A stretch of DNA of 64,000 bases, taken from Amoebophrya sp. A120. Lineage: Eukaryota; Protista; Dinoflagellata. The stretch lies in contig CAJINV010000001.1 of assembly GCA_905178155.1 (NCBI GenBank), positions 12,832,635 to 12,896,634 of the forward strand, in the 5' to 3' direction. Of the stretch, positions 1 to 59,600 are shown piece by piece. A program made the position numbers and the translations under genes. Under the pieces are notes generated by a model, which made no database searches, was not told where the DNA came from, and saw only the letters and a list, made by a program, of their open reading frames with translations. Numbering within the stretch: the first letter of the stretch is position 1; every line of letters begins with the position of its first letter.

Positions 1-780
1 AAAGGCGCTGCCACAAAAGCTGCGCCAACCCACGATGGATCGCTGGCCCGCTTTTGTTCTTGCGACCGGCGGGCGCGAAAGCTGCCAAATATTGCGACCC
101 TGGGGAAAGTTTCAGGGTGTGCACTGCACTGTTCGTGAAATTATCCGAGACGCGAAATACGCACCAATTACAAAGAGCTTACGCGGCCGCTTATTTAACA
201 GGGGCCCAAGCTGTAAAGCCAGTCTAGACGAGCACGAGCAATTTACAACGCTCATCATCTTTGACTTGTTCCTATAAAGAAAACTCAAGCTCAGATGTTT
301 CCAGGCACAATAATCTACACGACAGGTAGTCGACCACCGCCGGTTCCTCGTTTTGTTTTTTCGATTTACGCGGCGGCGTAATCGATTTTTTTTGCATTTT
401 TACGATCAATGCACCTTTTTCCACTACGGAGGCCTGGGGGCAGTTTTGAGTTTGATAGTATGCTTTTCCCCGCGGCGGCAAAGGCATCGTCCTCACTGGT
501 GTCGTCGTTGCCATACAACAAATCGGCTGCAATATTTTTGTACATAAGCATGCATCACACGGCTGCGAGTGCTTGCGGTCCATAGCGAAGCAGTCTTGGT
601 TAGCGCATCCATATGCAAGACAAGCCACTATATCGATTTCTCGAAGATCAAGAAAGTAGATCGATGAGTCATGATACATTGGACTACTTAAAATCCAAGA
701 ACATACATTTTCATACGATGATTGCGCGCACAGAGAAAAAAGAAGCAAGGATATCGTCGTGCTACCATCACAAAAACTTA

Positions 781-11338: not shown

Positions 11339-11565
11339 GCGCTGTTTAAACAAAAGCAAAAGGCTCCAACGTTGACTCAAACTGCGCCCGGCTCGTGATG
11401 AAGTTCCGGCTGACGCCAAGCGAAAGCGCAACCTTTTTAGCAGAGGTGCCGGCGCTGTGCCAGTCGGACGCTTTTCGCCGTGTGAAAAGAGCCCGACTGG
11501 GTATCGCTCGCGTTTAGATGCTTCGCGCACTTCCCTCGCGATTCTGGGCTTCGGGAGCTCGAAGA

Positions 11566-38223: not shown

Positions 38224-39154
38224 TTATACGCAGTATGGATCTAGGTGCGTAAATGCCCGGTCCAGCTCCTGCTCGACGACGCCTGCCATGCCCATCGGAA
38301 CCCGGGTTTTGTTATGGCGTTCTCAACTGTTACATTCTCAACTGTTACATGAGTTTGCAATGCAAGACTGGCAAAAGTGAAAGCAGGAAGATTGCGCCTT
38401 TTGCATTACAAGTTTGGCGCAGATTTGGATGCTGTTTAGCCCTTCCGAAATTTGTCATGCGAAGCAGCTCGATCATCTGCCGCCCGGCTTAAGGTACTTT
38501 TGCATGACAAATTCATGTAACAGTTGAGCATGTAACGTTTGAGAACGCCATATTTGTTCCGGAAAACGGTGGTGGGTATGTTGATGCTCCCGCCCTTCCT
38601 GGTCGAAATGAAGGGCATGTCCCCGGTGCCGAAGGGAAAAGCCTTTTTGCGCCCCAGCGGATTTGCGACCAACGTCTTTACGGAACTCGTGTAGCGGCCG
38701 CCCAGTTTCAGGGTTCTGCTACCGCTTAGGTTGCTAAACGGTGACGATCTCCCGCTTCGTGCTTGCTCTGATCCGAGCGCATAATCTGAGAGCGTTTGGG
38801 ATCGATAGCTAAGTTTGGGACAAGCAGGAAATTCATAAAAAAATTACGTGGGGTGACCAGCATGTCGTCTCACACTACAGCAGCGACAACAGCTATTTTT
38901 ACAAACAAAATGCAAATGCGCAAATGTACTACAGACAGCACAACGACATCATCCTGGATACCTGTTGTCCCCAACGGCAGCGTCGGCGCGGATGCATTTT
39001 TGGAAAGCCCTCGTGCAGCAGTGTGATCGCTGCTTGTAGCACCGCCCGTGGTTTGCACCGCTGTCACATTGCCACCGCATATCGACAGGCTGGCCGTCTT
39101 GCTCGCAAAGCTGAGTGTGCGCCCCAGGGGCTGCAGATCCTCATCGGCACCCAT
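38224..39154 (-). CDS. Hypothetical protein (one GT-AG intron plus one introner)
   Basis: Exons join as ..LGTT|DYALG.. and ..VFRNK|TRVPMGMAGVVEQELDRAFTHLDPYCV*. Confidence 0.6.
38313..38552. mobile_element. Introner element, family D (240 bp)
   Basis: ~40-bp TIR TATGGCGTTCTCAA..GTTACAT.CTCAACTGTTACATGA. DR TTTGT at 38308-38312 and 38553-38557. Confidence 0.92.
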
Positions 39155-40232
39155 AGGGTTTGTGTTCTTGGGGAAAAACAAAAAACTTGTTTCTGACGCG
39201 GATCGAAGTCCGCCTGCTACGTAGAAATAATTTTTCAACAATCCGAGGTTGAATGAGGTAAGAGTTGGAGTTCTAGCAAGTGAATTGCTACGAGCGTACT
39301 AGAAGATTGTCTTTGTCCCGACGACCATCCATGCGGCGAAAGTCCAATGCTTTATGATCGCGACGAATAAACGTAAAATGAGTGCTATCTGCAGATCATA
39401 ATTTGACCACTCACCAGACAGATCTGAAAAGCGACGGAGAAACAAATGGTAGAAGACGAGGATCCCAACAGATGAAGACGAGTCGCGCCACGGTTTTGCT
39501 TGAGTTTGCTCCCATTTGAAAAACGAACCCAGAACAGATAATCTCCCGACGACCACCACGCAGGGCAACAGATATCGAGGAAAATGCAACCGATGCTGCT
39601 GATGGTGATGGTGTGACATAGCATGTACGATATGAAGATAAATTGAAGTGGAACTACGAAGCGGGAGAAGCAGGATTCACGACTATTTTCACGACGAATA
39701 CATCCTACTTTTTTGATTGCGCAATAATCTTCGACGGATTGATTCTTTTGTGGCAAGTACACGATAAGTCACTCCGAATCACCAGAGATACACCGCAATT
39801 GCTTCAGCCAGGCACTGCCTTGCTTGAACAACAGGATCACAATGGATGTGAGTGTGAACATATTCGCCCGCCGCCGCCGATAAGGGGAGTGGCACCATCT
39901 TGTGCTTCTGTGAGAAGATCTGTTCTCACTTGTTTTGTTCGGTGTCTCGGTGATCAACATCACCTATTTCATCATACAAGATTGTAGCACAGCTGGAGTC
40001 ACTTCAAATTGATTTTTTTCGCGAGAATTCGCTTCTGTGAAGCACATGAAGAAACTTCTGTATACTGATGAACATGAAACCACCAAATAATGCACTAACA
40101 AGTACCTAAAAATAGCGAAAGACTGAAGACAGGCATCTTCGCACGTCGTTCGATTACTTTCTCTCCCGAAAGAAACATGAACGGGAGAAAACAAACAAGT
40201 ACAAATGCAAACCGCAGCGCTAGCAATTCTGT

Positions 40233-43200
40233 TCACCACATGCCCTGTTCATCTTTGCCGCAGAAGACTTGGTTCATGCGTCGCACTACGAGATCCCGCA
40301 CAACCTTGTTGTCTTCGTTTGCGCGCCCCGGAAAAAAGCCGGACGAGGTGCCGTTCACCTCCAGGATGTATTCCTGGTCATCTTCGCCCACGACGAGGTC
40401 AATCGTGCAGATATCCAGTCCTCCGAACAGCTCCGTTGCCACCAATTTTCCCCAGGCCAGGTAGCGGAGCGGGATTTCCGACTGCGGCGCCGCATAGTCA
40501 TCTACTTCCGCCCGAGCAGCGCCACCACCTGCGGCGAGGACCTCTTCGCTGGCCCCCACGACCCCGAGCTCCACCACTTTGCTGAGCCCCACGTTGGCTT
40601 TCCAGTGCCCGGACGCAGAAACTTTGCGGAAGCAACGGATGTGGCGGCCCTGATCGAGGACCTGAATTCGCACATCGAAGGCCGTGTCGGCAACATACGG
40701 TTCCACCGTGCAGTAGTGTCCGCCGCACATCTTCTATCAAAGAGCACAACTACTTTCCACCCTCTTCTCGTCTTCTTTTATTTGTCATGCATACAACAGT
40801 CGCACAGACACCCACACCAGGACCAGACACTGAGACTGACAGTGAGGACTGCGCCACGAAGATCCTCGAAGTCCTTTGTTGACGCGTTGCCACAAGCAGC
40901 TGCGCACGCAGGAAACCAAAATCTAGGATCATGCAAGAATGCGATTACTTTACCTTTTCCTCCAGATCATTCAGCTATCGCTTTGCAGCACTACATCGAA
41001 TCAAGCTGCTGCGAAGAACCCCAAACAATTATACTAGATTTTTTTATGCCTAGACTCGTGATGCACAGCAGGCTGCATCTCTTTCTCTGCCCTGGTCTCT
41101 GCTGCAGCTTTATTTGATGCGTCCTCTCAAATGCGGGGCAGAAGGTGGAGTTTATGTCCAGTCTCGTATCTTTAGCACAGACCGGAAATCCTCCAGGGAG
41201 TGGTGGTCCTCGAGCAGCATCTTCCCGTCACCGGCATGGACGCCTCCTATCTTTGCCACAGCGGGGAACGCGTTGCCGTAGAAGAAGCCGCGGGCGTGGT
41301 GCGTGCTGAAAAAGGACTGCTGCACCAGCGGAAACCCGCACTTATACAGTTCCCGCAGCTCCTCGTCGCTGATCAGGTGTTCGACCTCAAGCACTTGCTG
41401 GTTAAAAGACAAAGGGAAAGAAGTTTGCTCTCCCTGTTGTTCTCCTTGTGACTGGAAAAAGCCACCTCCCGCTGTAGTAGGGAAGGCAACAGCATTTGGA
41501 TTTGTGGTTCCGGTACTAGCTGCGGACGTCGACGTCTGCGTGGTTTGCTCTTGCTTCAGAAACTGCACGTTCTCCCGAGGACCCCCGAGCGCGGTGAGGG
41601 GGTTAGTGGTGGTCGTAGAGGTCGACACCGTTGTGGTGGAGGAGACCCGGACATGCGGCTGGAACGCGCAGTGCCGGAACTGCAGGCTTTCAAACTGCTT
41701 ATCAAATGTAAAAGTGTCTGGGTCTGGAAGAGTGAGCGACTTGTCATGCAGCTTTTCCAGATACCATGGCTGATGGCACTTAGGATGAAGGGGGCAGTCC
41801 TCAACCAATACACATTGGAAGAGGGGACCCCAACCCCCTGGGGGTGAAGAATCGAGGGTGGCATTGACCTACAGAAAAATGATCAACGATCAAAAATCCG
41901 CAGGCGAGAACGGGAAGGATCTTTTCAGACACCGACCCAAATCCTCTGCCAACCACTTCCCTCGATTTCACAAACTTCACTGCCGCGACGCAAGCGAAGC
42001 TGACAGGAAGACCCCGGCCACCCTTCCTCACGACCGAATTCCGAGAGGGATAAATAGTCCCCTCAGATTAGTCCCCTCAGATTCATGCAGCTTTTCCATG
42101 ACCCATGAGGTCTGGAATGCAGGACCTAGCATGACAGATTCTGCGCGACCTCTCTCATGCCTATCCTGCATGAGAACAAACCCCCTCCCGACTTGGTCAA
42201 AACTGGGCGACTTTTGGTAATTATGCAACAGCAACACAGATTCTTGCTTGTTTCAGATTTAGCATGACAAGCTGCATTCTTCCAGACCCAGACATTTTTA
42301 CATTTGATACTGCTTCCGCATCAACGATTTGCGGATCTTTTCCTGCGGCGGAATGCGAATAATCGTGTCGCCAGACTGTGTTTTGATCACCACGGCGGGC
42401 TTCTGATCCGAAGTGGCAGTGGCAGTCATGGTTGCAGCAAAAGAGCTACTATTTTTACTGCTGCGGAAGAGTTGTCCCGGGGCGGATCCGGGAGAAGAGT
42501 ATGCGGTGCCCACAACTGGCTCAGGCGACAGGCTTCTGTTATTGTTCGACGAGAGCTGGAGGAAGTTCTGCTCCAACGTCGAGCCGGGCGAATTTGGTCG
42601 GCTGCTCCGGCGTGACAATCCCGGGCTATTTGAATGAGCTGCGGCACTCGTTTTTGAGGCATTGTAAAAGTTTTTTGACCCTCCAGGACCAACAAAGCCA
42701 GTTGACGAAGTACTTTGCTGGAGTTCACCTCCCGCCTCTGCCACCATAGCCTGCCACCTGGTTACCTTCCGTTGGAGCTGCACAAGTTCGCCAAACACCA
42801 CGGGCCTCTCCAGGAAGGAGTAAACGGAGCGGAGACTGTTCACAGTTTCGAGGCCGCCGTAGTGGAAAAGCCCGAACAGCTTGTTCCGGTGATCTTCGTG
42901 CGACGTGCGAACTTCGTTGCGAATCAACACAAAGTCGGGCGGAGGAGAAATCATTTTCCCCGTTTTCGTGTGATGCAGTAGCAACCCCTTGTTTGGTGCA
43001 ATGGCACGTGTCGTGTTTGTCGTTGTCCCTTGCATCGCTCCAGTGGGCGGGAACGACGTGGCTCTGCTGGCTGCGAATGACGCATTCTCGTGGTCGTAGG
43101 GCTCGCTAGTCACATCCAGATCGTCCCAACCGCACTGGGTGACGTGAACCCCACGACCATCCGCTAGCTTTGTACCGCGGAAAATCTCGGCCCAGTGATA

Positions 43201-43422
43201 TCGGTCCGCCTGGATGACGAGGAGGTGGACGTTGTGATTCGAAAAATCCTTGTCACCCTGGCCAAGCTCATACAGCTCCTCCTCTTCTTGCAACGAAGCT
43301 TCTTCTTCTACTTCCTGTACTCGCTCGCCTGAGAGCAGTTCTTGTTCACGGTGCTGCGGCAGCTTCTGCTGCGCCGCAACATCCTCGTCGGTCGAACGAC
43401 CACCAGCACTTTCGTCTACCAT
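40233..43422 (-). CDS. Synapsin-like ATP-grasp protein, interrupted by two introners
   Basis: PDFVLIRN, VNSLRSVYSFLERPVVFGEL, FPAVAKIGGVHAGDGKM, SGHWKANVG, LFGGLDICTID and EYILEVNG match synapsin domain C. Confidence 0.85.
40735..41168. mobile_element. Diverged introner, family C-like (434 bp)
   Basis: Left arm TATCAAAGAGCACAACT, right arm (reverse complement) TACGAGACTGGACAT. DR TCTTC/TCTTT. Removal gives DFRSVLK|MCGGHYCTVEPY. Confidence 0.75.
41700..42309. mobile_element. Introner element, family B (610 bp, with nested insertion)
   Basis: ~32-bp TIR TATCAAATGTAAAA.TGTCTGGGTCTGGAAGA. DR CTGCT at 41695-41699 and 42310-42314. Removal joins MRKQ|FESL. Confidence 0.93.
41760..42082 (+). mobile_element. 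Nested 323-bp insertion, probable 5'-truncated non-LTR retroelement
   Basis: Flanked by the 16-bp direct repeat TCATGCAGCTTTTCCA (41744-41759, 42083-42098). Ends in the tandem (TAGTCCCCTCAGAT)x2. Confidence 0.65.
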
Positions 43423-44850
43423 GTGAAGGCCTCTACTTTATTGGTCAAGCAGCGTCGCGGCACAAGACGGGTTTGGTTTCTTTGGCCACAGTAAGTGGTA
43501 CACGACTCGGTCTACCTCCACGAGTATGCCACAAGCGACATTCTTGCAATCATTTGTATCTACAGAGTGACACTACGTACTACACTCATGCAGCTTTCTA
43601 GTTCTACGACCACAATTTATATGATCCGGTTCAACGGAGGATAATATGTAAGCTGTAGTTGATCAACATCAAGAAAGCGAAGCTGGGGCGGAATAGTGGG
43701 TGGACTTCGGGGTCGAAAAATGCACCGATTGGAGATTCAGATTCTTCAGCTTGCGAGTTCCTGTAGTAAGTTTGTGACGAAACAATGAAGAAAATGAAAA
43801 TGGTATTGCACTATGTATTTTCATTTTGCAGAGAAGATAGGCTGGTGCACGCGATGAGGGCTACAACTACTCCTGCAGAACTAAACACACGCCAACCACA
43901 GGTAAAAGCTGTGAGTGTGACCAGTGGTAATTGCACGAGGTTTGATATGGATTTTGTTTCATCCTGAGAAACCAACAGAACGAGAAGCAAGTACGAGGCA
44001 GGCTGCGAACGACCAAACTGAAAATTTTTAGCTTAAGGACATGCACCAAGGAACGACAACGGACGAAAGGCGAACGTGAACGATTGTTGTGTGCTGCGAC
44101 ACGACAGAGTTGGAAAGACGGTCGTGGGCGCTCTTGCGTTGTTTTTTTAGTTCTTTGGCAACGAACAAAGACGAGGGACATCACAATGAAGAAAACGAGC
44201 AAAAGGCTGCTGCCTGACCTACTTAGCACCATGATGGTGCCATGGCTTGTTGTAATTGTTTTCAAAAAATTATCCAGCAATGTTGCAAAACAAAATCTTC
44301 AATTGGATGACTCATTCAGTACATAGGCGTGTGTGCAGCTCGTCGCTCCGACGAAGGAATTCAGTTGATCCTGTAGTTGTGGCGTTCGCATTACACGGTC
44401 TGTTCTTAGGAACCGGGCAACATACTGATTGTGGCTTCGGGAAAACTAACTGCACTAAGCTTGAGAAGCGGCGCTCTTTGGAACCACTCGGAGCTGGAAA
44501 ACTGGTATACTATAAGTACGTTTTCGTGCCAAAATGTCAACGCAAGCGAAGCCTTCACGAAAACAAAGACTGCGAGTTTCTCTACGACTTACTCGTACTA
44601 AGGTGAAAATATATACGAAAGTCTAGATATAGATTCACAAAGAAATAATAGGGATGCAAGACACTAGAAAAAATGCATTCGTGGTCGAGCTCACAGAGTC
44701 GCTCTATCTTCACTCACCAGCGTGCGCTTTTGCTGACGATTTTCGGGTCCCCCTGCGTATCAATCTATAACTCGATTTTGTGCGTCACCTTCATGTCTAC
44801 AGAAACGCAATCGAAACGCACACGGAAAATCTGTACGCCTTTCTTTCTCG

Positions 44851-47800
44851 TTATTCCCCAACCGTCTTCGATGGCGTCTTTTCTTCCTGGTTGGCAACGG
44901 GAAAAATACCATCCTGCCCTTCTGCAGCTGTTTCGCCATAATTTGCGATTATTTCCCCTTCCTCAGCATCTTCGTGCTCCTCCTCTTCCTGTCCCGCTGC
45001 AGTTCCGTCCTCCGCCGGTAACGGAAGAGTTGCTGAAGCGATGCGGCCCTCCCCGTTTTCGTCCGTGACCAGCCAGCTAATGCTTTGTTGTGGAGCCGGA
45101 GGCACGATTTCAATCTCGTCCTCCTCCTCGTCTTGTTCTTCTTCGCCTGGTGTTGCTGTCGTCTGTTCCCCCTTCGACGCTTGTTGCAGGTCGCCATCTG
45201 ATAATTCTCCGCCCATCTTTGCCGGTTGTAGATTCGCCTCCTGCCTCGTGTTTCGCCCTTCTATTTTGTCTCGAAACGCGGAAACCGAGGGTCCGCTGTG
45301 TTTGCCGTCGTTGTCCGCTCTAGTATGTTGTCCCTGCTCGCCAGCGTCACTATCCTTGCTCACGATGCTGGAAGCAGTGGAGAGGTTTCGCGAAGGTGGC
45401 GGGATTATTTGGGCCTCCGACGAACTGGTGGTCGGGATAACACCACCGTACATCGAGGAACACGCACTCGTTGAGGCAGTACTGACGGAGGGAACCTGCA
45501 GTTGTTGAGCCATGTGATCCATTCTACATGAAAGAATAAGAATGTATAAAAACGAAAACCGCACCGGCCGCTGCGCCTTGTTTCTTTTAAGAAAGTTCGT
45601 CGTGAAGAACGAAACACAAACCTCTAAAAAAAGCCACCCATGCTGATGAGCAAACTACAAATTTGCGTACCCCGTTTTTCCTGCGTTCCATGCGCTTTTT
45701 TCGGTCGTTGTTCCGGGTGAGTGCGCGGTCCAAGACGTCCCGCCAACTTGGGTTGTACAGGGCGATGCCGACGCTGATGAGGGACTGGTTCTTGAGCATA
45801 GCGCTGCCCAGAATTTCCTCGAATTTCGCGCCCATGCCCCGGTTGTTCATGCACTCGCCCTGCTGCCCGGAGATGCGCAGAACCTCTAGACTTCGATTCA
45901 CGGAGAGCGAGTCCGCGATGGTGCACAGCGCGCTGACGTCCACGTAGTTGCCCTCAATGTTCAGCTCTCTCAGACTGCCGTTGTCCCGCAGCGACTTGCC
46001 GAGCACCTCCGCTTCCCCCGACTGCAGCGTGCTGTTTTGCAGGTACAGCCGCTCCAGAAAACGGTTTTTCCCAACCGCGGCGCACAGCTTCGGGGCAACG
46101 CGAAACTCGTTCTCGGGGGGCGGCATTTGCGTGCCCGCGAAAGAAAGTTCGAGCAGCGTCGGATCGTTCAAGAATACCCGGTGCACCATCCAGATCATCC
46201 AATTGGTGAACTGCCACTTCGCATCCACCTGCGCAAGCGTTTACTGTTTTCAGTAGAGACGGCTTCATGTCAAATCTTGTTCATCAACATGGCTTGAGAT
46301 AGCGATTGCTTTTGCATTCGAGCGGGGTGCAAGAAGTGACCACTTAATGTTAATCCGAACTCCACCTCCTCCACCCCCATTACTTCAATCAAATCGAAAT
46401 CTTCTCGTACCTTGATATTGAGACACTCCTCGATGGTGGTAATCTGGTCGATTTTCTTGAAGTCGTCCAGTACGCGCTTCTGGTCCTGCGGCTGGTTCTT
46501 TATCTTCTCCAGCTTCCGCACCCACCGCGCGAATTTCTCCTCCTCCGTCAGCTCATCCTCGTCGGTGCTCGACTCCTCCGACTCTTCCTGGTCCGGGCGC
46601 CACTGCCGGTTATGCAATGCAAAAGCATCGTACTAGTATGAATTGCATGACAAATTTTTCCTAGAAGAAAAATGAAATTTGTCATGCAGATTGAGGTAAG
46701 AAAACAGATCTGTAATGCTAGACTCGCATTTATGCGAGTACGACTACGATACTTTTGCAATGCATACCGGTAGTGTCCCATGGATTCCAGCACCGCCTTC
46801 ACGCTGGCGGCGGCCTTGCGCAAGTCCTGCCATCTAGGTTCTTCGATCAACGAGGTGACCGGGTTGATATTATTTTGTTTGGCGGAGGAGGTAATTATCT
46901 TTTCAGTTGTATTTTTGCAGTGATAGGATGAAGAAGAAGAACAAGAACCTCTACTGCTAGAAGTACTGCTACTGCTGCCCCCGGCCGACGAACGTCCGGC
47001 TTCCAGTAGGGCCGCTTGTTCCGTACCAGTTTCTGTCTGGACTGAGCTCCTTCCTGGGGACGCTGTCATGGACGCCGAGCTAGAAGTACCAGAGGAAGAA
47101 GATGATAGTGACGTCGTCGCATCGACATTTGTCGATATCGCCGTACTAGACGCCGTGCTCATCGCACAACTACTGCCCTCGTCCTCCTCCTCTTGCTCTG
47201 GGTTCCAGTTCTCCGTGAGATCCATCTGGTAGAAGACCTTCCCGATGCGGATGCAGTTGCCGCCAAAGACGCAGTCCAGCTCGCGTTTGTCGCCCTTCAC
47301 CGTATCGTACATGAGATCGCGCTATCAATTGTAAAAATGTCTGGGTCTGGAAGAATCCAACTTGTCATCGCTGATGTTGGATTATAAAAAAATCTGTATT
47401 GCATGAGCAGCAAAGAGAGTCCAAGTTTTGCTACACGGAAAGAGCATTTGTCATGCGGTATAGGCATCAGGAAGCCGTCACAAAACCTGTGATGCTAGGG
47501 CATGCATCACAGACGTCAGGAGTCATGCAAAATGTGCATGACAAACCTGGCAATCTTCCAGGCCCAGACATTTTTACACTTGATACGCGCATCTTTTCGA
47601 TACAGATCAGCGTGTCGTTCTCCAGCTTGCGACGCTTGATCATGCCCAGGTGCTTGTCCGCAAGCTTGGTGCAGCCGGTCGTAAATTGGGACTGGAATTG
47701 TGGTTGAAGTTTTGCAGTAGCAAGAAGTACGAACGTATAATGGCATGCTAGTTTCAAAACTTTCATATTTTGTGTACTTAAAGAGATAACTGAAGTTAAC

Positions 47801-48300
47801 GTTACGCTGTGGCAAGGTGCATTTCTGAAGTCGAGTGCGTACTACAATAGGATACCAGCAGTCCGTCCATCGTGTTGCTGACCCGCTCCACACGCTCCTC
47901 ATCGATCACGCCCCCGCATCCAGTGCAAATGCGATATATGTCAGAGTCAGCACCAAAAGACATCTAGATTTTTTACCTAAATTCATCTTGCTCGCTTACG
48001 CTTTGCAGCGAACTTGCACGAATCAGAAAACCTCGTGCGCGCGGCTCCAGAGGGAGCAAGATAGATGAAGAAGGATGAAAGATATGCACGACGTGTCGTT
48101 CGTAATTTTTTACAAGTAACTTCTTACAGTGACGTAGACATTTATTGCTCTTGCAGTGGATACACGGTACTCGACGACGATTTTGGGTTTCTTTTGTTCC
48201 ACTTTTTCTTTGCTTTTTTTCTTCTTTTTTACCTTTGCGGGCTCGCCTGTGCCGGTGCCGGGAGCGGCGCCCACGTTTGGTAGAATGGTGCTGGTCGCTA
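44851..48300 (-). CDS. Multi-exon protein with a tropomodulin-like (RNI-type) LRR domain; two introners
   Basis: LNDPTLLELSF, LRDNGSLRELNIEGNYV and RALTRNND resemble the tropomodulin LRR. 5' end uncertain. Confidence 0.65.
46611..46766. mobile_element. Introner element, family A (156 bp)
   Basis: TIR TATGCA.TGCAAAAG.ATCGTA. DR CCGGT at 46606-46610 and 46767-46771. Removal joins HYR|QWRP and corrects the frame offset. Confidence 0.92.
47323..47585. mobile_element. Introner element, family B (263 bp)
   Basis: TIR TATCAA.TGTAAAAATGTCTGGG.CTGGAAGA. DR CGCGC at 47318-47322 and 47586-47590. Removal joins KMR|DLMYD. Confidence 0.93.
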
Positions 48301-49663
48301 TGCAGAGAAAAAACACTAAAAAGCATGACGAGGCAATGAAACGTGTGGTGCCAGTCATTACACTTGTAACAGCACATGACGTGCTGTTTTCTTGTCGTCG
48401 GAACATAAAACATGGGATAACTTGATACTTGCATGCTTATCCAGTTTTCCTTTCCGGAGGAACGAAATCATCATAAGTATGTACCCATCCAGTACCAGTT
48501 CCAGTACGGGTATGTGAAGTATGTGACGCGTAGAAAAGTTTGGGTTTTGTGATCCAGTTTTTTCCCCTTCGATACTCGCGACCGTCATCCTTTCTCGCGG
48601 ACAAGCCTGCGGTTTATTCAACAGTCGGTGTGGGTTGCACTGCCCGCCGCGTTCTGTCGAGCTTTTTGCCGTTTAGCAACCACGAAACCCTGCGCCTGGA
48701 ACGCCCGTTCTTGCTAGCACTGCTGCTTGTTACTTGGAGAGAAGGTGGAAGTGGAACGTCGCTTCTTGTCTACGGGGTCGTATACACGGCATTCATATTT
48801 GGATTTCTTCAATGTTTTTGTTTGTATGTCTGCTTGCCGTGAACATAAATCATTGCAAGTAGTAGAGACACAGAAAAGAGTGGCGGGCGCCCTTTTGCTG
48901 GTGCGGTTGGCTTTTGCTCTTTCTCATCTCAGTCTCTCATGTTCATTCCGCCCGGACTCAGCGTAGACGCAGCGAGCTGTAAAAAATTGTAATTACGCGC
49001 ACCAGCACGTGACGGCCTCAGAAAAGAATAAAACGTATCCAGTTCTTCTTGTTGAGAGCAACGTGCTTCAGGAAGTGTCATTTTGGTGTGGTCGCGATAC
49101 AAGCACAAGCAGAACATCTCAAAGAATGTTGACAGTCATGCGCTCGTCTCAAGTTGGAAGAGCCTTTATCGAGTTCTACTTGCGTCGTAGACGCTTCTTT
49201 TTCTTTATTTTCGTACTATTAGATGCTTTCTCCCTTTCTTGCGACGCCATCCCGGCTGTTCTTGCCGTTCCCGATTTCATTTATTCGGGTGCCCCCCTCC
49301 CCACAATCTCACCTTCCTCGAGCGTACACAAATTTGATCAGCTTAGCATCTGCCAGGAATCACTATGTCGATGGATGCGTTGAAAGTGAAAGGTCAAGGT
49401 ACTTCTCTCGTTCTTTGCTTTCCACTTTCATGCGTCCTCCGCCGACACAATTATTCCGCGTATTCAATCAGAAAATTTCATCAGTTAGCGTGCAACTGTG
49501 TTCGACTTGCTAAAGTTTCAGTTTCAGGTTTTGAGTTTGTTTCAATGGTAATCAGTTGTTCCTTGCATCAATTACAAATGGTGTTGGTGCTTGTTATTAC
49601 ATGGTGATGGTAATTTTACATGTTGTGCTTGTGGAGTATTGTGAAGAATTAGAATTCCTCTAA

Positions 49664-52600
49664 CTATTCCATCAACAGGTCCGCCATCGGGGAGGCCGCG
49701 TATTCGTCCGGAAAGTTCTTTTCGAAGGTTTGCACAATCTCGGCGACAAAGTCCGGGCTGTAGACCTTGACCTCGAAGAGAAACTGCAGCAGCTGTTCCG
49801 GTATGCTCTGCAAAGGTATCGCAGTCGTAGTAATTGCAGTCATGCATTACAAATTTTTTTCTTAACGTAAATCCGCATGACAAACTTCATTTCTCATGCT
49901 CTAATGCATTTAATATACGAGTACGATACTTTTGCAGTTCATATCCGGCTCGATCCGGCTGCGCTCCAATTCGTCCGAAAACATCACGTATCAGAGTGCA
50001 CAACTTCTTGGACCTTTGTCCCTCTCCTTTGATTGTCCTACTTTACAAAGCACCATCACAGCCACTGTTTGCCTCTTGGCACTTCTTGTTTTTGCGAACA
50101 GGCAGGGTCATCTGGCAGCCAAGACAACACTGGAATTCTGTGCGAAATTGCCTTTGCCATGCAAAAGCGGCATATATTTTTGTTGACGTTTCTATTGCTG
50201 AAGGCTGATCATGCAGCTGTTAATAATGAAATGCGCTACAAATTATGACGAGCAGGGGAACAAGGGGAACAAGTTGTGCACTCTGATATGACGCGGAGCA
50301 TCTGCACGAAGGTGGTGAGGACCAGCCCGCAGCCGGCCTTCCAGAAGGTGTGCAGGACCACTTGCGCCAATTCCGAAAACTCCGGATCAATCAGAGACAC
50401 ATACACGTACATGCTGATCCGCTCGAACAACCCGGCCCTGGTGTTGTGAAATCATTGTGGAAATGAATTTAATTTTTTGGAAACATCATGCACGAGTAGG
50501 TAATCATGCTTCTCATGGTGGTGCGTGCAGGCGAAAGGCTAAGGCAAGAAGAAAGCACGTGCAACATGCACCAAAGTCGTGTGTTAACTGCCAGTAATTT
50601 GAAAGAACTGAAAGTATTGTAGCTATATGATGTTGATGTGGTCATATATATTGCCTCCGAAATACAGCGAGCGAATCAATTCATACGTAGCTTTGAACTC
50701 TACCAGTCTTCCTCCCCCAGCGTGAGGTCTATGTCTCTGATGCAGGCGAGTAGCAGCTCGAGATGGGCGGCGTCGAAGTAGTCTAGTTCCGAGGCCTCCA
50801 CGTCGTCAACGAAAGCTGACGCGATGTCAAACCCATTCCACAACTGGCGCAAGCAAACCTCGTCGTACGCTCGGGAAGCAGGGCCCATCACGTAACTGTG
50901 GAAAGATTTTATCAAGACGTGCTGCACTTCCTGCAGGACCCCGTCGCAGACTGAAAAAGATGCAGATCATCATCAAGAAAAGCAGACACTATACTGGAAA
51001 AAAATGGAAAATGAACATTTCAACTGCTGCAAATATATGAAGAATAGGAGTGCGAGACTCAACGCATCCAAAACTATACTTCAGTCTGTGCACAACCATT
51101 CCGAGTCGATTTACGCTCATTTCGGCGTCTATCAAATGTAAAAATGTCTGGGTCTGGAAAGTTGTGATGCTGTGTGGCGTGCCATGCATGAGGAGGCCAC
51201 GATTGCTGGCTCAGCATGACAAGTTTCTGAGCTTCTAGGTGTTGCCTATTCTGCATGACAAACTACGTTTCTGCATGACAGAAAAGTGGGGCTCTTTGGT
51301 AATGTGCATGACAGATTTAAGAGTCATGCCAGACAAGCATGACAAACTTGCATTCTTCCAGACCCAGACATTTTTACATTTGATAGCATCCGCCAACAGT
51401 CTCTGTCGTAGCGGCGCCGGCTGCGTCACTAGTATCTGGTAGGAAATAAAGGAATACATAATTGTAAAGGTGGATTCGATTGCAAAACAAGCTGCGGGGT
51501 ACGACTATCAATTTTGAAAAAAGCTGAGCAACGCGCAACCATATCAGCACGCACGTCTACACCAGGATGTACTTAGAAAGTCTATCAGTACCCTAACGTA
51601 GAGCGGCAGCAGCTGCTCCTTGAATTGCGGATGGACCAGGAGCAATACTACGTTGGCGAGCCCCACCTGGAGGACATTTCTCGAGTTAGTTGGAATAAAG
51701 ATGGACTGCACAAAGTGCATCAGCAGTTTCTCCGTTTCCGGTGGCCTCGGCGGCGCCGACGCTTCACTTGAGCTTGCGGATACTGACGAAATGGATTATG
51801 TGGATAGAATGCCAATGCAGTTGCAGCCGTTTGTTCTTTTGAGTTTTGACTTGTTGTACACTGTACAGGCCAAGTCTCACAATTTGTTATCATGATGCGC
51901 GAAAAATACCCTCGCGAACAAGTAGAGCGAATGCTTGTTACGAGTAGCAACAATCTTCTTTCTCTATGCCTGTAGACCCACTTACCTAGATTCAGCAGCA
52001 AATGGCAGGCGAGAAGGAGCAATTGCGCCTGGACTTCCCACCACGTGTCTTGTGCGAGGTTTTTCATTGCCGGTACGAGGGCGAAAACGCCTTCCAGAGA
52101 TATGTCCTTGGCTTCCGGGGCGTAGCTGTGATAGAAATTATTGTAGGCGAATCTATAACGACCACGACGCTCCTGCTCCTCTTCTTCAGCATCAATTTCA
52201 TGATCACGGCAGATCGATGAAGAAGGAGATCGAGGTCTACGCAACCAAAATAATCCACAAAGATAGTGTAGCAATGTCGCCCCAAGGCTAGAAGTATCCG
52301 CACGGTGGGTCGATGCTACGCTGTACTACTTCGTTGCATCACGGTTTTTCATCACCTGGAAGGAAGAAAAAAGAAAATAAGAAGTACTCGGCGGTTTTGT
52401 TGTAGTCGTAATCCTCCTTGGCACTGACGATCTGCGTTAATATACTCAACCCGAATACTATGAGGAGAAAAAAGTGTTACAGTTACACATTGTCATGCAA
52501 GACGGGCAACACAGCCAACCTTTCTCATGCAGGAAATGCTTTGGAGTTGGAGCCTCGTTTCCTTCCTGTTTTCCCTTATGATCTTTGCATTGCAAGTTTT

Positions 52601-54915
52601 CTTTGTCATGCAGAGGAAACTTGTGATGCTGAAGTTACAGCAGATGTGTAACTGTAACACTTTTTTCGTGGGATAAATACCCGGACGCGAGGGGACGCGT
52701 CTTGGATGCCCAGTTGGGCGTAATACAGGTACAGGTCTAGCAGCGTCGGATCCTGTTGTAGATATTCATGTTGACATGTGTTGAAAAGCATTTTGCTTCG
52801 GCGGATCTGATCTCCATTTCCAGTCATCTCCAAGGGACCGTCGGACTGCTGTTGACGCTACCCTCATGTAAATAAGGCGGTCTTGTTGAGACCCGTTAGA
52901 TATCCTGGCGACCGTTGAAGGCAATGCATGAAAGCAGTTGTACAACTTACCCCAAGGAGTCCCATCTGCGCTTCTATACCGACGAGGAAAGACAACAGAT
53001 TTACGTACACCCCGACTTCGGCAACTCGCTCCTTCAGGTGCCTTAGCGCTGCAATGTGCGCCTGCGACGTGTCACCGCTGTAAGAAAACACGAAGTCGGC
53101 CACCGCCTCCCGCTTACTGCCGACCAGCGTCGCCAGCTTGGCCATGTCCGGAAGGCCTCCGTCGATCCACAGGTGCTCGGTGATGACCGGATCCGTTTTA
53201 GACAGCGTGGCGCCGAGGCGCTTCAAAAAGTACGCAATGCCCTCGAACACGGGGTTGTCGTGGCTCAGCGAGAACAGCGGCTGGCTGAACAGGGTAAAAA
53301 TTTTCGAAAACTCGGGTGGGTTCTTCAAACATGTCTCGGCGATGCCGCGCAAGACGCCCTGCCCGGTCAGGGACTCGAGTATTCTAAGTGTAATCCCCTC
53401 CGGAATCTGCTCCACGTGCTCCATGAAACTGACCACCTGCAGAATGAAGTGCAGACTCAGTCGCGATGGATTTGTTGTTAAGGATGCACGACGGCGGGGG
53501 AACAAAATCAAAGTGCGCCATAATATTTTTTGCAGTAATTGATTAAAAAATCAAAGTTCAAATTGCAGTCCTACTACTTCATCTCACAAAAATGAAGAGG
53601 TCCCTGCTTCTGGTACCAGGTCTTTTCTTGGATCGATGATGCGGTAGCAGTCTGCATCAATGGCTTCGGCAAAGATGGGCTTCATTATGGCGAGACAACT
53701 CTCTCCGGACACGGCCCCGTCGTCGAGGCTCCGGGCGGACGCCGAGGTCGCGAGCCGGCTGTGCTGCCGGAACATGGTCAAGTTTTTACTGATCGGCTTT
53801 ATGCTTGCCTCCTTGATGTCCAGGTGCGAGATCTCGAACTGTTTGTCGGTCAATTCGCTTCTTCATAGGAGTCGATGTCCAAAAGAGCAAGGTCCGTTTC
53901 ACTAAAACAGGCCGCCCCATGGCGGGATTCACTACGGCAAACAATTTCTACTGAAACTGAGTTCAAGTTCTTCCAGGGGTACGAAGATAATGATAAACAA
54001 AGAACAAAATCCATGAAATAAAAAGTTTTTTTAGTACATTGCTACTGACGACCCTCGGCTCGCCCCTACCGGAGTGCGCAGGTCTGCTAGTCCGTGCCGT
54101 TGACATCATTTGCGCTTGTTCTCGTTTCGCTGGCTCGGGTGGATCCGGTTCCTTTGCAGTAGTTGAGGCTGCCCTTGAAGCCGCGTCATCGGCGCCCTTT
54201 ATCGAAGCGAAGAGAAATGAAATCGATGCTGATTCCAAATGTGATTTAAGTTTTTTCAATAGAACCCCTGGAGGAACAACTTGTTCTTTTAGATGAAGCC
54301 ATGGCGTCGATACAAACTAACTGCCTATATCGCTCTTCTGGCTGGCCTCCAGCAGTAGAGATCTTTTCATCTTTTTCGGCATGTAGGGTGAATGTCTTCA
54401 GTTGCTCGTCATGCCACCCTATCAGTATCTTTTGCAAGACGCATTCGCTTTAGGAATCATCCAGGCGACTTTATCTTCTCGTCGATATCTCCAGTGGCGG
54501 CGGCACTGGCGTCTGCGGGTATGGTTTCTACGAGCGCATTGTAGTCCACGGCCACGCGCTTGGTTAAAAATGTGTACAGTTTTTTCATGAGCGCGACGCT
54601 CGCGCCGGCGACATTGTTGATTACCGGATCGAAGTCCGGCCGGCCGATGTCCACCTTATGTTTCACAAAAAATTTCAGCAACTGGTCCCAGTTATCCCGC
54701 TTGATCTTCAGCTGCGTACCGGCCTCGTATGAGTGCATGTGGATCTCCTTCGGGTGGTACCTGGAGAGCACTTCTGCCACCAAGAATCCGTTGCTGAAGT
54801 CGCGCCCGACATTCACGATGGCGAAACTCAAGTCCAGTGACTGTAGCCACTTTAGAATCTCCCGAGGCAGCCGCGTTTGCGGCTCCACCCCGTCGGTTGG
54901 CCGTCCTGGGAACAT
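49664..54915 (-). CDS. SPATA4/SPEF1-like CH-domain (DUF1042) protein with a long helical C-terminus; four introners plus several GT-AG introns
   Basis: LPREILKWLQSLDLS..RDFSNGFLVAEVLSRY..KRDNWDQL. The last exon ends PMADLLME*. Some internal exons are only approximately traced. Confidence 0.75.
49802..49943. mobile_element. Introner element, family A (142 bp)
   Basis: TIR TATG..CTGCAAA.GTATCG. DR TCCGG at 49797-49801 and 49944-49948. Removal joins RIEP|EQLLQF. Confidence 0.92.
49989..50288. mobile_element. Introner element, family C (300 bp)
   Basis: Perfect 18-bp TIR TATCAGAGTGCACAACTT. DR TCACG/TGACG. Removal joins MLRV|MFSDEL. Confidence 0.9.
51130..51385. mobile_element. Introner element, family B (256 bp)
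   Basis: Perfect 30-bp TIR TATCAAATGTAAAAATGTCTGGGTCTGGAA. DR GCGTC/GCATC. Removal joins LAD|AEMS. Confidence 0.92.
52459..52675. mobile_element. Introner element, family F (217 bp)
   Basis: TIR TAT.....GAAAAAAGTGTTACAGTTACACAT. DR AATAC at 52454-52458 and 52676-52680. Removal joins RVRV|FGLSIL. Confidence 0.92.
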
Positions 54916-56607
54916 TTTTCGACCGCGGCTCAACACTAGTAGATGCCACCAAGCAGTAAGAAAGCTGCGTCGAATAAAGCTTCCTACCACGGTCGATTGG
55001 GCGCGTCGTCCTGCTCAGCAAGGGAGCATGTTCTTGCCAGTTCTTGTACTCAACATGAAAAATCGTTGTAGTTTATTATCCGGTGCAACGCGCCGCCTTC
55101 GCGCTGCGCGCGCACCGAGTGCGGGGAAACGACCATGCAATCGTCTACTGCGCGCTTGGTAAACTAAATGAGTCTTGTATTATATTTCAATTCCGTTGAC
55201 AACAGTCTGCCTCTGCACTTTTCATTTTCTGCAGCATATTGAGTTCGGGAACAAGCCTGCGACGGCGAACGAGAAATCTCCGACCCATCTCGAATGTCAA
55301 GCTCGAGTTTCGACGCGACTCGCAATACAAACAGCCTTGCCCTTGCCCCCTCTCGTCGTCGTCGTCGTGCTCGTGGCCAAAAAGAAGAACTACAATAAAC
55401 ATGGACGCTAGGCTAGCCAGAGGAACGAATCTCCTCCACACAGCATTGATTTCTATTGCTTTGTCACTCCAACATACTACACATACGAAATCGAAAACAC
55501 GTGAAGCGCTCTGATTGTTGACACTCAACGGCACTCAGCAATCAAGTGCTGACTGTATATTTCACACATGTTTGTAGACGAGAACGTAACGTGACTGAAG
55601 CATCAGCATCAGAAGAGGAAAACGTCAGTCATTTTCCCCGTCACGCCATATTAGCGTGGCCTTTATGGTCATATTTTCTTGTAAACAGCTAGCCCGTAAT
55701 ATCATTATCCAAATCCATCCAAGGATCACCAGTCGGCCGTCGTCAAGCAGCAAATCGCGGTATCTTCTCTTCCATCCTCAAGCTAGCAACTTTTATATAA
55801 ACATTGTACAATTATGTGTCATGGTTTCATTTCCTTTTTTCAAACCCGAGCCCCAGCAGGTTGAACTACTAGCATTGAAGGATGAGAGTCAACGAGTCAC
55901 GATAAGGTCCCGCTCATTCTCATGCTGCAGGCCGCGGTAATTTTTCTGATCTTGCCTAGTAATCAAACAGTAACAGATAGTAACGTAAGTTGTAAGTTGA
56001 AGACGATTGTTGAATAGAAGCACAGGGAGGTTCTTTGAAGATCATTTCTGAGGTGACGATGAGCATTTGCAATGAAACTACATATTAAATGAGATGACTA
56101 TGATGTTGTACAGCAATTTTACATTTCCATCTGTCAACATTCTCGATGACACTTACAACCATAAAAGTCAAGTAGCAGCCTTAGAAATATTCATCAAGGA
56201 AACTTCGATTTTGCATAAAGTGGATAAAAAATGTTTTGCGAAGATAGCAGTCGCGCATCGTCATGCAGAACCTGCGACGAGGCTTGACGCAATGTCACGT
56301 TGTAATAAGTAGTAATGTAATGAACGGTATTAAGGGGCGCCATCTGCATCTATTAGAATGCCGACGTTTTTTTATCGAGTAGTCCCGACACGGGACGTGT
56401 AGAAGCGTTCAAAAAAAAAGAAAGTTGGAAAGATGCAGGTGTTGAGTGGAAACTCGGGTTTTACAGCCGTCCGCGCCGCGTGGAAGAGGATGGAACTACA
56501 GGGTAAGTAGGCCCCGAGGAGCGGGCTACGCGTACAAGGAGTTTTCTCAGTATCACGACTCGATGGACTTCTCGTCTGGTAGGAGCGAACTTCTTCCAGC
56601 AATAAAC

Positions 56608-59600
56608 TTATTTTCGGCGAATGAACACACCCTGTTCCATCTCGACCGGGTCAAAGTCTCCTAGCGGCTCGTTGAGCAAGCGGCTGACGATCTCCGCGGG
56701 CACCTTATTGAACTCCATATCTTCGAAATTTCCCCGCAAATCCAGCACCGCCAGCGCAGCGCTCGCCGCTGCGGCGTAGACCAGTGCGGAGAACGCCTCG
56801 TCACTGCGGAAAGCGATCTCGTTGTTGGAGAGGCACAGGAACTGGATTGTGGGGTGCATGGCCACCATCTCCGCGAACCTCAGAGCGCCCAGCTCGCGCA
56901 CCCGGTTGCTGCCCAAGTCGACGGAAAGCACGTTCAGCAAGCTGGTTTCCACCTCGCTGTGATGCAGCTCCGAGCCGCCGATGCTTTCCGCGAGCGCCAT
57001 CGCGCCAGATTCGGTGATGTTATTCTCGGACAGATTCAACGACGAGAGGCGCGGCAGCGACTGGATGCTGTGCGCAATGCACACGGCGCTGATGTCGCTC
57101 ATCTGATTCGCCTGCACGCTCACGTGCACTAGCGTAGATCCACACTTCACCAACGAAGTAAACCTGAGATTTGGTTGTATTGATATATATAATCACGAAC
57201 TGGTACTGGAGGCTAAACTTCTACATTATGTACACAATGACAATCCAGGCCCAGTAGCTTTTACTCTGCGTTCACGCTTCACTATTTGTTCCTGGGTTTT
57301 GGAATTTTTGTATGCGCGTTGCAGTCTTGTGAGCTTCGAGAGGACGACATTTTTCCACCGCAAAAGTGCAACAAAAAAAAATCAGATATAGAAGCGAATG
57401 CTTGTACAGGTCCACCACGCCGGAGTCCCCTAAGTTGTTGAATGCCAGGTTCAGGTGCGTCAGCGACGCTAGGTCCAACTGGTCCGCGGCACCCAAGTCC
57501 CAACTCAGGGGGGACATGGAAAGAAACAGGTGCTGGATGTCCATGGAGCTGACCGAACCCAAAATGTCGCCCACCACGGCGGGATCGACGAAGGGAAAAC
57601 AGATGCGGTGCTTGGCCAGTCATCCTGTGGAAAAAACTTCGAGTTGTCGTGCCAACGTTGACTCTTCTGCTTGCAAAATTATACTTTGCAGCACACCAGA
57701 TCGACACGCACAGGCAAAACACAACATATAATTGGTTTTGGCAAAAAAATTGCATGCAAATAAAAATACTTAAAACAGACCACACGGACTGTGAAAATTG
57801 AAATTCTAAAATTCGAATTGCCAGGACAACGCGAGGATATGTTTTTTCCATTTTCCTAGGAGCTTGTCGCTGTAGATGTCGGAGTGCGTCAGGTGCACCT
57901 CATCGTTTCCATACAGTGTACGGAAGCAGTCGTGCATGCGCTGGCTGTTGATGTTGTTTACATAAAGCGGCTTGGCGGGTAGGTCCGTGAGTGCGGCTGC
58001 GCCGTCTGCGGTTGCCGAGCCTCCTCTTATCGCCGCGTCCTTCCGCGCTTTCCGCTTCACCAATTTCTCCACCAGGTGCCCGAAAATGCCCGCGGGGCCC
58101 GCTGTGTTGACGTGCACCGTTTTTGTGACCGCCTTCACGACCGTATCCATTATGGAGTTCTCAAATGTTACATTCTCAACTGTTACATGATTTGTCATGC
58201 AAAATTACCTTGACTATCGACGCCATCAAGCCGCTTCGCGCGGCAAATTCTCATACGGCCAAACAGGCTCAGAATCTGTGTCAAATCTGTCATGCAAGAC
58301 GCGCAAGGTCCTTCCTTTCTTTTCACATTTGCCATTCTTGCATCACAAATTCATGCAACAGTTGAGAATGTAACATTTGAGAACGCCATATCCATTTCTT
58401 CTTGGTTCTGCATTAGGAAAATGGTGCCGTCGTCCTGGATGTGCATCCCGTGCTCGGCAGGAATCTTTGGAATCACACTCAGCTGCACTTTGGTGCTCAC
58501 GGGAGTGGCGCGGAAAAATCGTACTATTTCCTTCAGCTCACGCTCCAGCTTAGACCTGAAAATTCGACGTGTAACAACGAAAATCAGTACTAACAACACC
58601 ACATAAATCCACAATCACAAAACAGTGCGATGTGATCAATCGGAAGTCAACATCCACCTGGACAGGACGTGCTGGACAAAGTAAATTTTTCTGCCTGTAC
58701 CTGATGACTATTGGTGGCACGAAAGGCGCGGTGTTTCCGGTCGGTGCTCGACTGACGTCGTGTCTACGCTTGCTGCACTTTTGCTCCATGGCTGCCAGCT
58801 CGGACTCCATGTCCATGTTGTGTGTGACCAGGAGATGCACGTGGCAGTGTGGGATTGCCGGGAAGGTGTGCAGGACGTGCGCGAAGAAGTGCGCGTCGCA
58901 TTCCGACAGAACGCTGTTGCCCACCGCTTGGTCGACGTCCACGCGGATCACGGCGGGCGGCAGGGGTTTTCCGGCCGTCGTGGCGACGGTAAGCGCCTCG
59001 ATATCGATGCCGTTCAGCACCTTCAGGCTTTTCAGCCCCGCGCTGCTGGGTTCCTGCTGGACGCTGGCCGCCTCCCCGAAGGCGGTCAGTGCAATCTTGG
59101 ACCGGAGCAGCTGGTACAGCTCGAACGCCGTCCGCGCGCGGAGTTTCGGGCAGTACCGGACGGTCAGCTTCTCCAGCGTCGGGCAAGCGTTTTCGACCGA
59201 TAATTGCTTGCACAAAACCGCCACCGCTGCATCCGTCAGGGACGGGTTGCGCGACAGGTTCAGCTCCTGCAAAAACGGAAGCGATGTCGACGAGGGGAGG
59301 CCTGTCGTTTCAGAAACAAAAGAAAGATGCGGGGCGTGGGAATATCACTTTCGAATTGTGATGTCAAAAGCAAAAGCTTAAGCTACAGGCTGAAAAGTGC
59401 TCATACGTATCACCACCATCTCAATCAGGCCTACGCTGCGCTCAAGTATCAGTGGAGAATGAGTCCAAGCAGAAAACGTTCAACAGATCAAGTAAACAGA
59501 AGAGATGTCTCTATGACCACTATGATCACTACACTTCTTCTAAAATGAAGTAGTACCGTCCGCGGGTGTGAAGCACTTGAGCAAGCCGCAAAGACCACGC

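What the first reader, a model, noticed from the sequence alone, without database searches (positions are those of the whole stretch)
38313..58390. Family D sits in opposite orientations in same-strand genes: orientation-independent introns
Seen: the interior of the copy at 38313, reverse-complemented (..TTTGTCATGCAAAAGTACCTT..GCTTCGC..AAACAG..TTTGCCAGTCTTGCAT), aligns along its length with the copy at 58151 (..TTTGTCATGCAAAATTACCTT..GCTTCGC..AAACAG..TTTGCCATTCTTGCAT). Both are 240 bp and both hosts are minus-strand. Inference: every signal needed for removal must be symmetric (TIR stem and two-strand motifs), unlike polar spliceosomal introns.
Basis: partly seen in the sequence, partly recalled or inferred. 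Interest (0 to 1): 0.8.

Follow-up and report, generated by a model that had tools for sequence, protein, structure and literature searches.

The report
Amoebophrya introners spliced in either orientation
Two copies of a small hairpin-ended transposon sit in opposite directions inside two genes of the plankton parasite Amoebophrya, and both are missing, to the base, from assembled contigs of likely RNA samples; this is a known kind of mobile intron, and direction likely does not matter because its mirror-image ends give the RNA nearly the same start and finish either way.

Summary
Observation confirmed. The 240-bp copies at 38313 and 58151 share interior homology only in reverse orientation (z 10-14 vs 0-2.6). 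Both hosts are minus-strand genes of Amoebophrya sp. A120 (100% protein hits). In 4 of 4 likely-RNA runs both copies are skipped as element plus one 5-nt target duplication (245 nt, no GT-AG possible), which makes the proteins colinear with homologues. Three more families in the window also occur in both orientations. These are the published A120 introner elements (Farhat 2021). The inference is only partly right: the long inverted ends give the transcript nearly the same first and last 40 nt either way, either-orientation introners with GT/GC/GA 5' splice sites are published for Polarella, and the cut is polar: one register, 1 nt before and 4 nt after the element, fits all 8 RNA joints tested. 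That register puts the element's TA where 17 of 17 canonical introns have G-T-A, which favours a relaxed spliceosome over an SOS-like nuclease-ligase route. The scan noted these elements and the 1+4 cut earlier on other DNA of this genome.

The parts
38313..38552 (.). Family D introner copy A, 240 bp, TAT...ATA, 53-nt inverted ends (38313-38365 / 38500-38552)
38308..38312 (.). 5-nt target-site duplication of copy A, left copy (3' copy in the transcript)
38553..38557 (.). 5-nt target-site duplication of copy A, right copy (5' copy in the transcript)
38309..38553 (-). 245-nt non-canonical intron of gene A drawn in the inferred 1+4 register (the joint itself can slide over 7 positions, none GT-AG)
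   Evidence: joint 38307->38553 in 4 of 4 runs; slides; register inferred from other elements
37820..39252 (-). Host gene A (annotated A120 protein P0078, 219 aa, no name); exons about 38962-39252, 38553-38785, 38230-38307, 37978 and below; limits approximate
58151..58390 (.). Family D introner copy B, 240 bp, opposite orientation to copy A, 43-nt inverted ends (58151-58193 / 58348-58390)
58146..58150 (.). 5-nt target-site duplication of copy B, left copy
58391..58395 (.). 5-nt target-site duplication of copy B, right copy
58147..58391 (-). 245-nt non-canonical intron of gene B drawn in the inferred 1+4 register (joint can slide over 9 positions, none GT-AG)
   Evidence: loose end behind 58151 equal to window 58397-58426 in 4 of 4 runs; annotated protein
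56611..63915 (-). Host gene B, LRR protein (annotated A120 protein P0059, residues 346-1769 lie here; the gene runs past the window end); also holds elements 57621, 60500, 60969, 61901, 62581
46611..46766 (.). Second family, same orientation as 9423-9576, opposite to 49802-49943; removal implied by contig pieces, joint not displayed
49802..49943 (.). Second family, opposite orientation; skipped as 147 = 142 + 5 nt in 4 of 4 runs
47323..47585 (.). Third family, opposite orientation to 41700-42309 and 51130-51385; removal implied by a contig piece ending at 47317
51130..51385 (.). Third family; mismatched duplication; skipped as 261 = 256 + 5 nt, allowed registers 3-5
49989..50288 (.). Fourth family, opposite orientation to 21319-21540 (and, through it, to 62581-62812); mismatched duplication; skipped as 305 = 300 + 5 nt, allowed registers 4-6
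54200..54487 (.). Diverged element, duplication mostly decayed; skipped as 293 = 288 + 5 nt, allowed registers 3-4 (register 3 would read GA-AG)
57621..57858 (.). Degenerate element (ends TAG...ATG, boundaries assigned by me); joint 57616->57860 has no microhomology and allows register 4 only
   Evidence: loose end in one run

Best explanation
The two copies are non-autonomous inverted-repeat transposons (introner elements) of Amoebophrya sp. A120 that sit in opposite orientations in minus-strand exons with a 5-nt duplication, both are absent from likely-RNA contigs together with one duplication, and they are likely removed from pre-mRNA by a relaxed U2-type spliceosome that is predicted to read the element ends rather than GT-AG. 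Steps: (1) shown: insertion geometry, opposite orientation, 245-nt skip, restored colinear proteins; (2) shown by sequence: the inverted ends give the transcript near-identical first and last 40 nt and a predicted long stem in either orientation, while the interiors differ; (3) inferred from mismatched duplications: the cut is polar to the transcript, 1 nt before TAT and 4 nt after ATA, so the intron reads N-TAT...ATA-NNNN and length is restored whatever the target; (4) inferred: the stem holds the ends together and the TA at +2/+3 stands in for the G-T-A of canonical donors, with G+1 and the final AG dispensable; (5) inferred: an unknown transposase inserts without regard to transcription direction, hence both orientations. 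Steps 1-3 I hold at about 0.9, the spliceosome step at about 0.55-0.6.
For: Reverse-only interior homology. Skip of 245 nt at both copies in 4 of 4 runs; the DNA-like run X5 enters the element and runs through a canonical intron (records 10-11). Spliced frames open for 251 of 259 and 259 of 259 codons; each element has stops in all three transcript frames. The A25 orthologue and P0061 align without a gap across junction B (2 of 9 homologues aligned; the other 7 are gapped there or end before it); across junction A, 6 of 8 homologues have no gap at the junction, one has a 27-aa gap ending there and one does not reach it. Transcript-strand ends 37/40 and 38/40 identical; stem z -8.9 to -13.2 in both orientations. 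17 of 17 canonical introns begin GTA; element 61901 reads as a plain GT-AG intron in register 4. Farhat 2021 reports nearly all spliceosomal proteins and U2, U4, U5, U6 in A120, U1 snRNA not found, and the same repeat layout in 15% of canonical A120 introns.
Against: No lariat, branch point or factor dependence was tested; I saw no branch-site motif shared by all families, and a 40-50 bp stem would have to be opened for U2/U6 to act. The N-TA start of the elements is partly circular, since 14 of 18 were found by searching for TA/TAT ends; only the register is independent, a 2-nt match (about 1 in 16 by chance). Copies A and B have perfect duplications, so their own register is not fixed (7 and 9 slides). 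Cross-family orientation calls conflicted, so register 4 in both orientations is argued statistically, not shown within a family. The four runs are contigs, 'RNA' by the tool's guess, at most 2 samples of 1 study, and may not be independent of the annotation. Junction 57616 rests on one run's loose end and my boundary call; 54200 also fits GA-AG at register 3. 7 of 9 homologues did not align cleanly across junction B.
Confidence: 0.6

Rival explanations
1. A spliceosome-independent hairpin excision: a nuclease recognises the paired inverted ends, makes a staggered cut 1 nt before and 4 nt after the stem, and an RtcB-type ligase joins the exons, a precise counterpart of SOS splicing and perhaps of euglenid nonconventional intron removal.
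For: No GT-AG in any slide of either joint; strong stems in both orientations; end-pairing scores 7-27 in 18 elements vs 4-7 in 17 canonical introns; U1 snRNA not found in A120; SOS splicing is triggered by paired inverted repeats (PMC12779559).
Against: SOS splicing is imprecise and leaves indels, whereas all 8 joints tested remove exactly element + 5 nt; the register aligns TA with the G-T-A of 17 of 17 canonical donors; old elements with weak end pairing (scores 7-10) are still removed according to a contig end or the annotation. RtcB/AKAP17A/CAAP1 presence not tested.
Confidence: 0.27
2. One reading: removal needs only two-strand-symmetric signals, including the internal repeated motif, and has no polarity.
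For: A motif copy lies 42-43 nt from each end in both copies, facing inwards.
Against: The cut keeps the 5' duplication and discards the first 4 nt of the 3' one; most internal motif copies are polar and fall on opposite strands in A and B, so they more likely serve transposition.
Confidence: 0.06
3. The skips are reverse-transcriptase template switches or assembly artefacts across a hairpin flanked by direct repeats.
For: Hairpin plus short direct repeats is the classic setting for RT skipping (own knowledge); only cDNA-derived contigs were available.
Against: Retention would truncate conserved proteins; joints with mismatched duplications do not use the longest microhomology (49989) or have none (57616->57860); the same joint appears in 4 of 4 runs.
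Confidence: 0.04
4. Removal happens in DNA (empty alleles or programmed excision), not in RNA.
For: The runs are RNA only by the tool's guess; the joint table for X5 was cut (517 rows not shown).
Against: The same contigs skip 9 GT-AG introns among the 15 joints shown; X5 contigs enter the element at single-copy depth (about 26-27) and cross a canonical intron.
Confidence: 0.03

Closest known systems
Introner elements / non-canonical introns of Amoebophrya sp. A120 (Farhat et al. 2021, PMC7789003; also listed in Gozashti et al. 2025, PMC12130899)
   Same: Same organism; inverted ends starting TAT, 3-5 nt direct repeats, non-GT-AG ends, about 240 nt, repeated families, in long co-oriented gene blocks.
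   Different: Nothing in kind. The sections, passages and supplement legends I read do not mention element orientation or a fixed cut register; family D lacks the A-run at TIR positions 11-13 described for A120 families, and its inverted ends (43-53 nt) are longer than the 8-20 nt reported.
Either-orientation introner-like elements of Polarella glacialis (classes 1, 2, 3, 6, 7, 8, 10) and Aureococcus anophagefferens (Roy et al., bioRxiv 10.1101/2020.10.14.339549)
   Same: DNA-transposon introns with target duplications that become introns in either orientation.
   Different: Those recruit GT/GC/GA donors and AG-type acceptors from the element or the duplication, so insertion sites are constrained; here no such dinucleotides are needed and the 18 duplications vary freely.
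SOS splicing in C. elegans and human cells (PMC12779559)
   Same: Removal of inverted-repeat DNA transposons from mRNA at non-GU-AG sites near the repeat ends; logically blind to orientation.
   Different: SOS is imprecise, leaves indels and needs AKAP17A, CAAP1 and RTCB; here removal is exact and these factors were not tested.
Euglenid nonconventional introns and Fritillaria borealis non-canonical introns (review PMC11282704, section 6)
   Same: MITE-like origin, inverted ends, duplications, non-canonical borders; in euglenids the pairing is offset from the intron ends.
   Different: Euglenid introns use CAG/CTG at +4..6 / -8..-6 and leave circles, mechanism unknown; Fritillaria uses AG-AC/AG-AT and its own spliceosome. 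Neither motif set is seen here.

Membership tests
Amoebophrya A120 introner elements | Located in the A120 genome | tested here: met
   exons 100% identical to proteins named Amoebophrya sp. A120
Amoebophrya A120 introner elements | Terminal inverted repeat beginning TAT | tested here: met
   definition from section 11
Amoebophrya A120 introner elements | TAT + 7 nt + at least three A (published family consensus) | tested here: not met
   family D has TCA at positions 11-13; several other window families fit it. A described consensus, not the paper's definition of an IE
Amoebophrya A120 introner elements | 3-5 nt direct repeat at the exon/intron borders | tested here: met
   perfect 5-nt repeats at both copies
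Amoebophrya A120 introner elements | Removed from RNA without GT-AG ends | tested here: met
   contigs of runs that are RNA by the tool's guess
Amoebophrya A120 introner elements | Repeated family | tested here: met
   two copies here; 44 X5 contigs leave the element end at 38313 with other flanks
Spliceosomal (U2-type) introns | GT/GC/GA-AG borders | tested here: not met
   no slide of either joint gives them
Spliceosomal (U2-type) introns | Lariat with a branch adenosine; dependence on U2/U5/U6 and Prp8 | not testable with these tools
   only contigs were available for this strain
SOS splicing | Trigger is a paired inverted repeat | tested here: inconclusive
   stems predicted in both orientations; necessity not tested
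SOS splicing | Imprecise junctions with indels | tested here: not met
   8 of 8 joints remove element + 5 nt; contigs hide rare isoforms
SOS splicing | Needs AKAP17A, CAAP1, RTCB | not tested
   no whole genome held
Group I/II self-splicing introns | Match to catalytic RNA models | tested here: not met
   0 Rfam matches at gathering score in the window
MITEs (non-autonomous TIR transposons) | TIR, fixed-length TSD, short, non-coding, multi-copy | tested here: met
MITEs (non-autonomous TIR transposons) | Cognate autonomous transposase | not tested
   no genome held; Farhat 2021 reported two putative transposases in A25 and none in A120

The most novel reading that the evidence does not exclude
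Amoebophrya A120 has a dedicated, exact transposon-removal system that measures from a TAT...ATA RNA stem (1 nt before, 4 nt after), needs no splice dinucleotides, no fixed flank and no orientation, and works outside the standard spliceosome: a precise, genome-scale counterpart of SOS splicing that lets tens of thousands of transposons land in exons at no cost and could be turned into a scarless, orientation-free intron cassette.
Probability: 0.25. Interest if true: 0.85.

Novelty: already known. Interest (0 to 1): 0.4.

Why it matters
How Amoebophrya removes tens of thousands of non-GT-AG introns without a detectable U1 snRNA is an open question. Opposite-orientation sister copies act as a natural mutagenesis: they exclude the middle ~140 nt as a one-strand signal and confine what the machinery reads to about 40-50 nt at each end plus a 1+4 spacing. 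That gives minimal substrates and a sharp test (lariats or not) between an altered spliceosome and a nuclease-ligase route. Orientation independence as such is not new for introners and does not decide between the two.

Tried and rejected
No whole genome is held, so the genome-wide sense/antisense count could not be run. Including DNA-like run X5 swamped the joint table; 11 joints were not shown, so removal of 41700, 46611 and 47323 is implied by contig pieces only. A common orientation axis across families was sought by alignment and rejected: scores conflict (47323 and 51130 are opposite to each other yet both score 'same' to 21319). A G enrichment at duplication position 4 (11 of 18) looked like splice-site selection but is mirrored by C at position 2 (11 of 18), so I read it as a palindromic target preference. 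No branch-site motif common to all families was seen by eye in the ends; not tested formally. Pfam gave no family for the host exons next to either copy. Rfam: 0 matches. Look-up of earlier findings by the sequence of copy A: none. Paper search was swamped by unrelated hits. The Aureococcus primary paper is not held.
Full report
Observation. The copies at 38313-38552 (A) and 58151-58390 (B) are both 240 bp, begin TAT and end ATA, have inverted ends of 53 and 43 nt and are each flanked by a perfect 5-nt direct repeat. Reverse-complemented A aligns to B at 190 of 245 columns. After trimming 43, 53 or 60 nt from each end the reverse alignment stays far above 300 shuffles (z 14.3, 11.6, 9.9) while the same-strand one does not (z 2.6, 0.0, 0.5). 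A scan for TA..TA elements with a 5-nt repeat found 13 in the window and 0, 0, 0 in three shuffled controls; a looser scan added 52459-52675 (controls 2, 0, 0), and four degenerate ones (54200, 57621, 60500, 60969) came from RNA joints or the annotated protein, 18 in all.

Organism and hosts. Exons next to B and A translate 100% identically to proteins named Amoebophrya sp. A120. P0059 (1769 aa, LRR) maps on the minus strand from 63915 to 56611 with a 245-nt gap at B; P0078 (219 aa) spans A. The 9 canonical joints among the 15 shown all read CT..AC on the plus strand, so these genes are minus-strand, in keeping with the co-oriented gene blocks in Farhat et al. 2021.

Are both orientations removed? 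Eleven runs were listed, none of the holders on record as RNA. I laid six. X5 behaves as DNA: its contigs enter element A at single-copy depth and cross the canonical intron at 38786-38961; it may be the source of the assembly and is no independent support. X9 gave 7 reads and is uninformative. X1-X4 (contigs, RNA by the tool's guess, at most 2 samples of 1 study) skip canonical introns and show the joint 38307->38553, 245 nt, in 4 of 4 runs; for B the laid stretch ended inside the element, and 4 of 4 runs show a loose end behind 58151 whose letters equal window 58397-58426, again 245 nt. No slide of either joint gives GT-AG. The spliced frames are open for 251 of 259 and 259 of 259 codons, and both elements carry stops in all three transcript frames. 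Across junction B the A25 orthologue and P0061 align without a gap, while 7 of 9 more distant homologues are gapped or end there; across junction A 6 of 8 homologues have no gap at the junction. Contigs cannot give efficiency or rare isoforms.

Not special to family D. Three other multi-copy families also show both orientations: 9423 and 46611 versus 49802 (interior scores 91 and 73 reverse against 33 and 31 forward), 41700 and 51130 versus 47323 (124 vs 28; 70 vs 47), 21319 and 62581 versus 49989 (61 vs 25 for 21319); shuffle maxima were 26-33. Joints are shown for 49802, 49989 and 51130, implied by contig pieces for 41700, 46611 and 47323, by annotation for 62581, and untested for 9423 and 21319.

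Why orientation does not matter. On the transcribed strand A and B share 37 of the first 40 and 38 of the last 40 nt, and each folds into a long terminal stem as transcribed or flipped in silico (z -8.9 to -13.2 against 40 shuffles). Any machine that reads the ends sees almost the same RNA both ways. The interiors are polar: the repeated internal motif lies mainly on one strand in A and on the other in B, apart from one inward-facing copy 42-43 nt from each end. So the pair excludes the interior as a one-strand signal but does not show that removal is non-polar or non-spliceosomal.

The cut is polar. Where the two duplication copies differ, the joint shows which letters were kept. Counting the nt of the 5' duplication left in the exon, the allowed sets are 4-6 (49989), 3-5 (51130), 3-4 (54200) and 4 only (57621); the four perfect-duplication cases (A, B, 49802, 52459) allow anything from 0 to 5; register 4 alone fits all 8. 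Two annotation-based cases read by eye allow 2-4 (60969) and 4-5 (60500). A cut fixed to the element's own axis would give register 1 in half of the copies; 6 of 6 informative cases exclude 1 (about 0.03 if orientation is random, my arithmetic). I could not assign these six to a common axis, so this is an indirect argument. The intron reads N-TAT...ATA-NNNN. I saw this, before looking up earlier notes, which report the same 1+4 rule elsewhere in this genome; they are not independent proof.

Which machine? 17 of 17 canonical introns examined begin GTA and end CAG (GT and AG were selected for, +3 A and -3 C were not). Register 4 places the element's TA at +2/+3, and element 61901 then reads as an ordinary GT-AG intron. 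Farhat et al. found most spliceosomal proteins and U2/U4/U5/U6 but no U1 snRNA in A120, and the same repeat layout in 15% of canonical introns. The evidence is modest: a 2-nt match, no lariat data, no shared branch motif seen. A nuclease-ligase route like SOS splicing remains open (0.27), though SOS is imprecise and 8 of 8 joints here are exact. RT skipping is unlikely because one joint has no microhomology and the proteins need the skip.

Comparison with what is known. These are the published A120 introner elements. A statement on orientation for the Amoebophrya non-GT-AG elements was not found in searches or in the texts read. What I saw: PMC7789003 abstract, passages, sections 10, 11, 12, 16 and a term search of its one supplement (legends; figures not held); bioRxiv 10.1101/2020.10.14.339549 passages and section 5; PMC12779559 passages and Discussion; PMC11282704 passages and section 6; PMC9860276, PMC12130899 and PMC12787238 passages only. 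The Aureococcus primary paper is not held; the journal version of Roy et al. and the Gozashti datasets were not seen and may contain orientation counts. The labels MITE and RT template switching, and the branch-site consensus I looked for by eye, are from my own knowledge.

Verdict. Real, correctly observed and supported by likely-RNA contigs; a known system with an apparently unreported but expected property. Its value is that it narrows the unknown removal signal to the ends and a 1+4 spacing. Interest 0.4.

Noticed in passing
18 elements across the window: Target duplications show C at position 2 (11 of 18) and G at position 4 (11 of 18), about p = 0.003 each post hoc: a palindromic nCnGn target preference, a handle on the unknown transposase.
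   Followed up: partly
window 61897-62222 (-): An element whose duplication happens to read NNAGG becomes a plain GT-AG intron in the 1+4 register; may explain the canonical introns with repeats reported for A120.
   Followed up: partly
window 57621-57858, 54200-54487, 60500-60775, 60969-61289: Old elements with weak end pairing (scores 7-12) and decayed duplications are still removed according to contigs or the annotation, so a long stem may not be needed once an element is established.
   Followed up: partly
window 41700-42309: 610-bp member of a ~260-bp family, probably holding a nested insertion; it separates Pfam Synapsin N- and C-domain matches in a minus-strand gene, a synapsin-like ATP-binding protein in a dinoflagellate parasite.
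   Followed up: no
17 canonical introns, 37979-63702: All begin GTA and end CAG, with little conservation beyond +3, fitting a donor read without normal U1 pairing.
   Followed up: partly
window 38311-38348: Contigs of runs X3 and X4 carry family D ends joined to flanks from other loci: some copies elsewhere appear unspliced (pre-mRNA, retained, non-exonic or DNA).
   Followed up: no
window 11068-11929: Cluster of short direct and inverted repeats (about 34-45 nt units) that does not fit the TAT...ATA pattern.
   Followed up: no
window 7011-7271: 261-bp element with a 47-nt inverted end distantly like family D, scoring in the orientation of the copy at 58151; inside an open minus-strand frame; no RNA laid.
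   Followed up: partly
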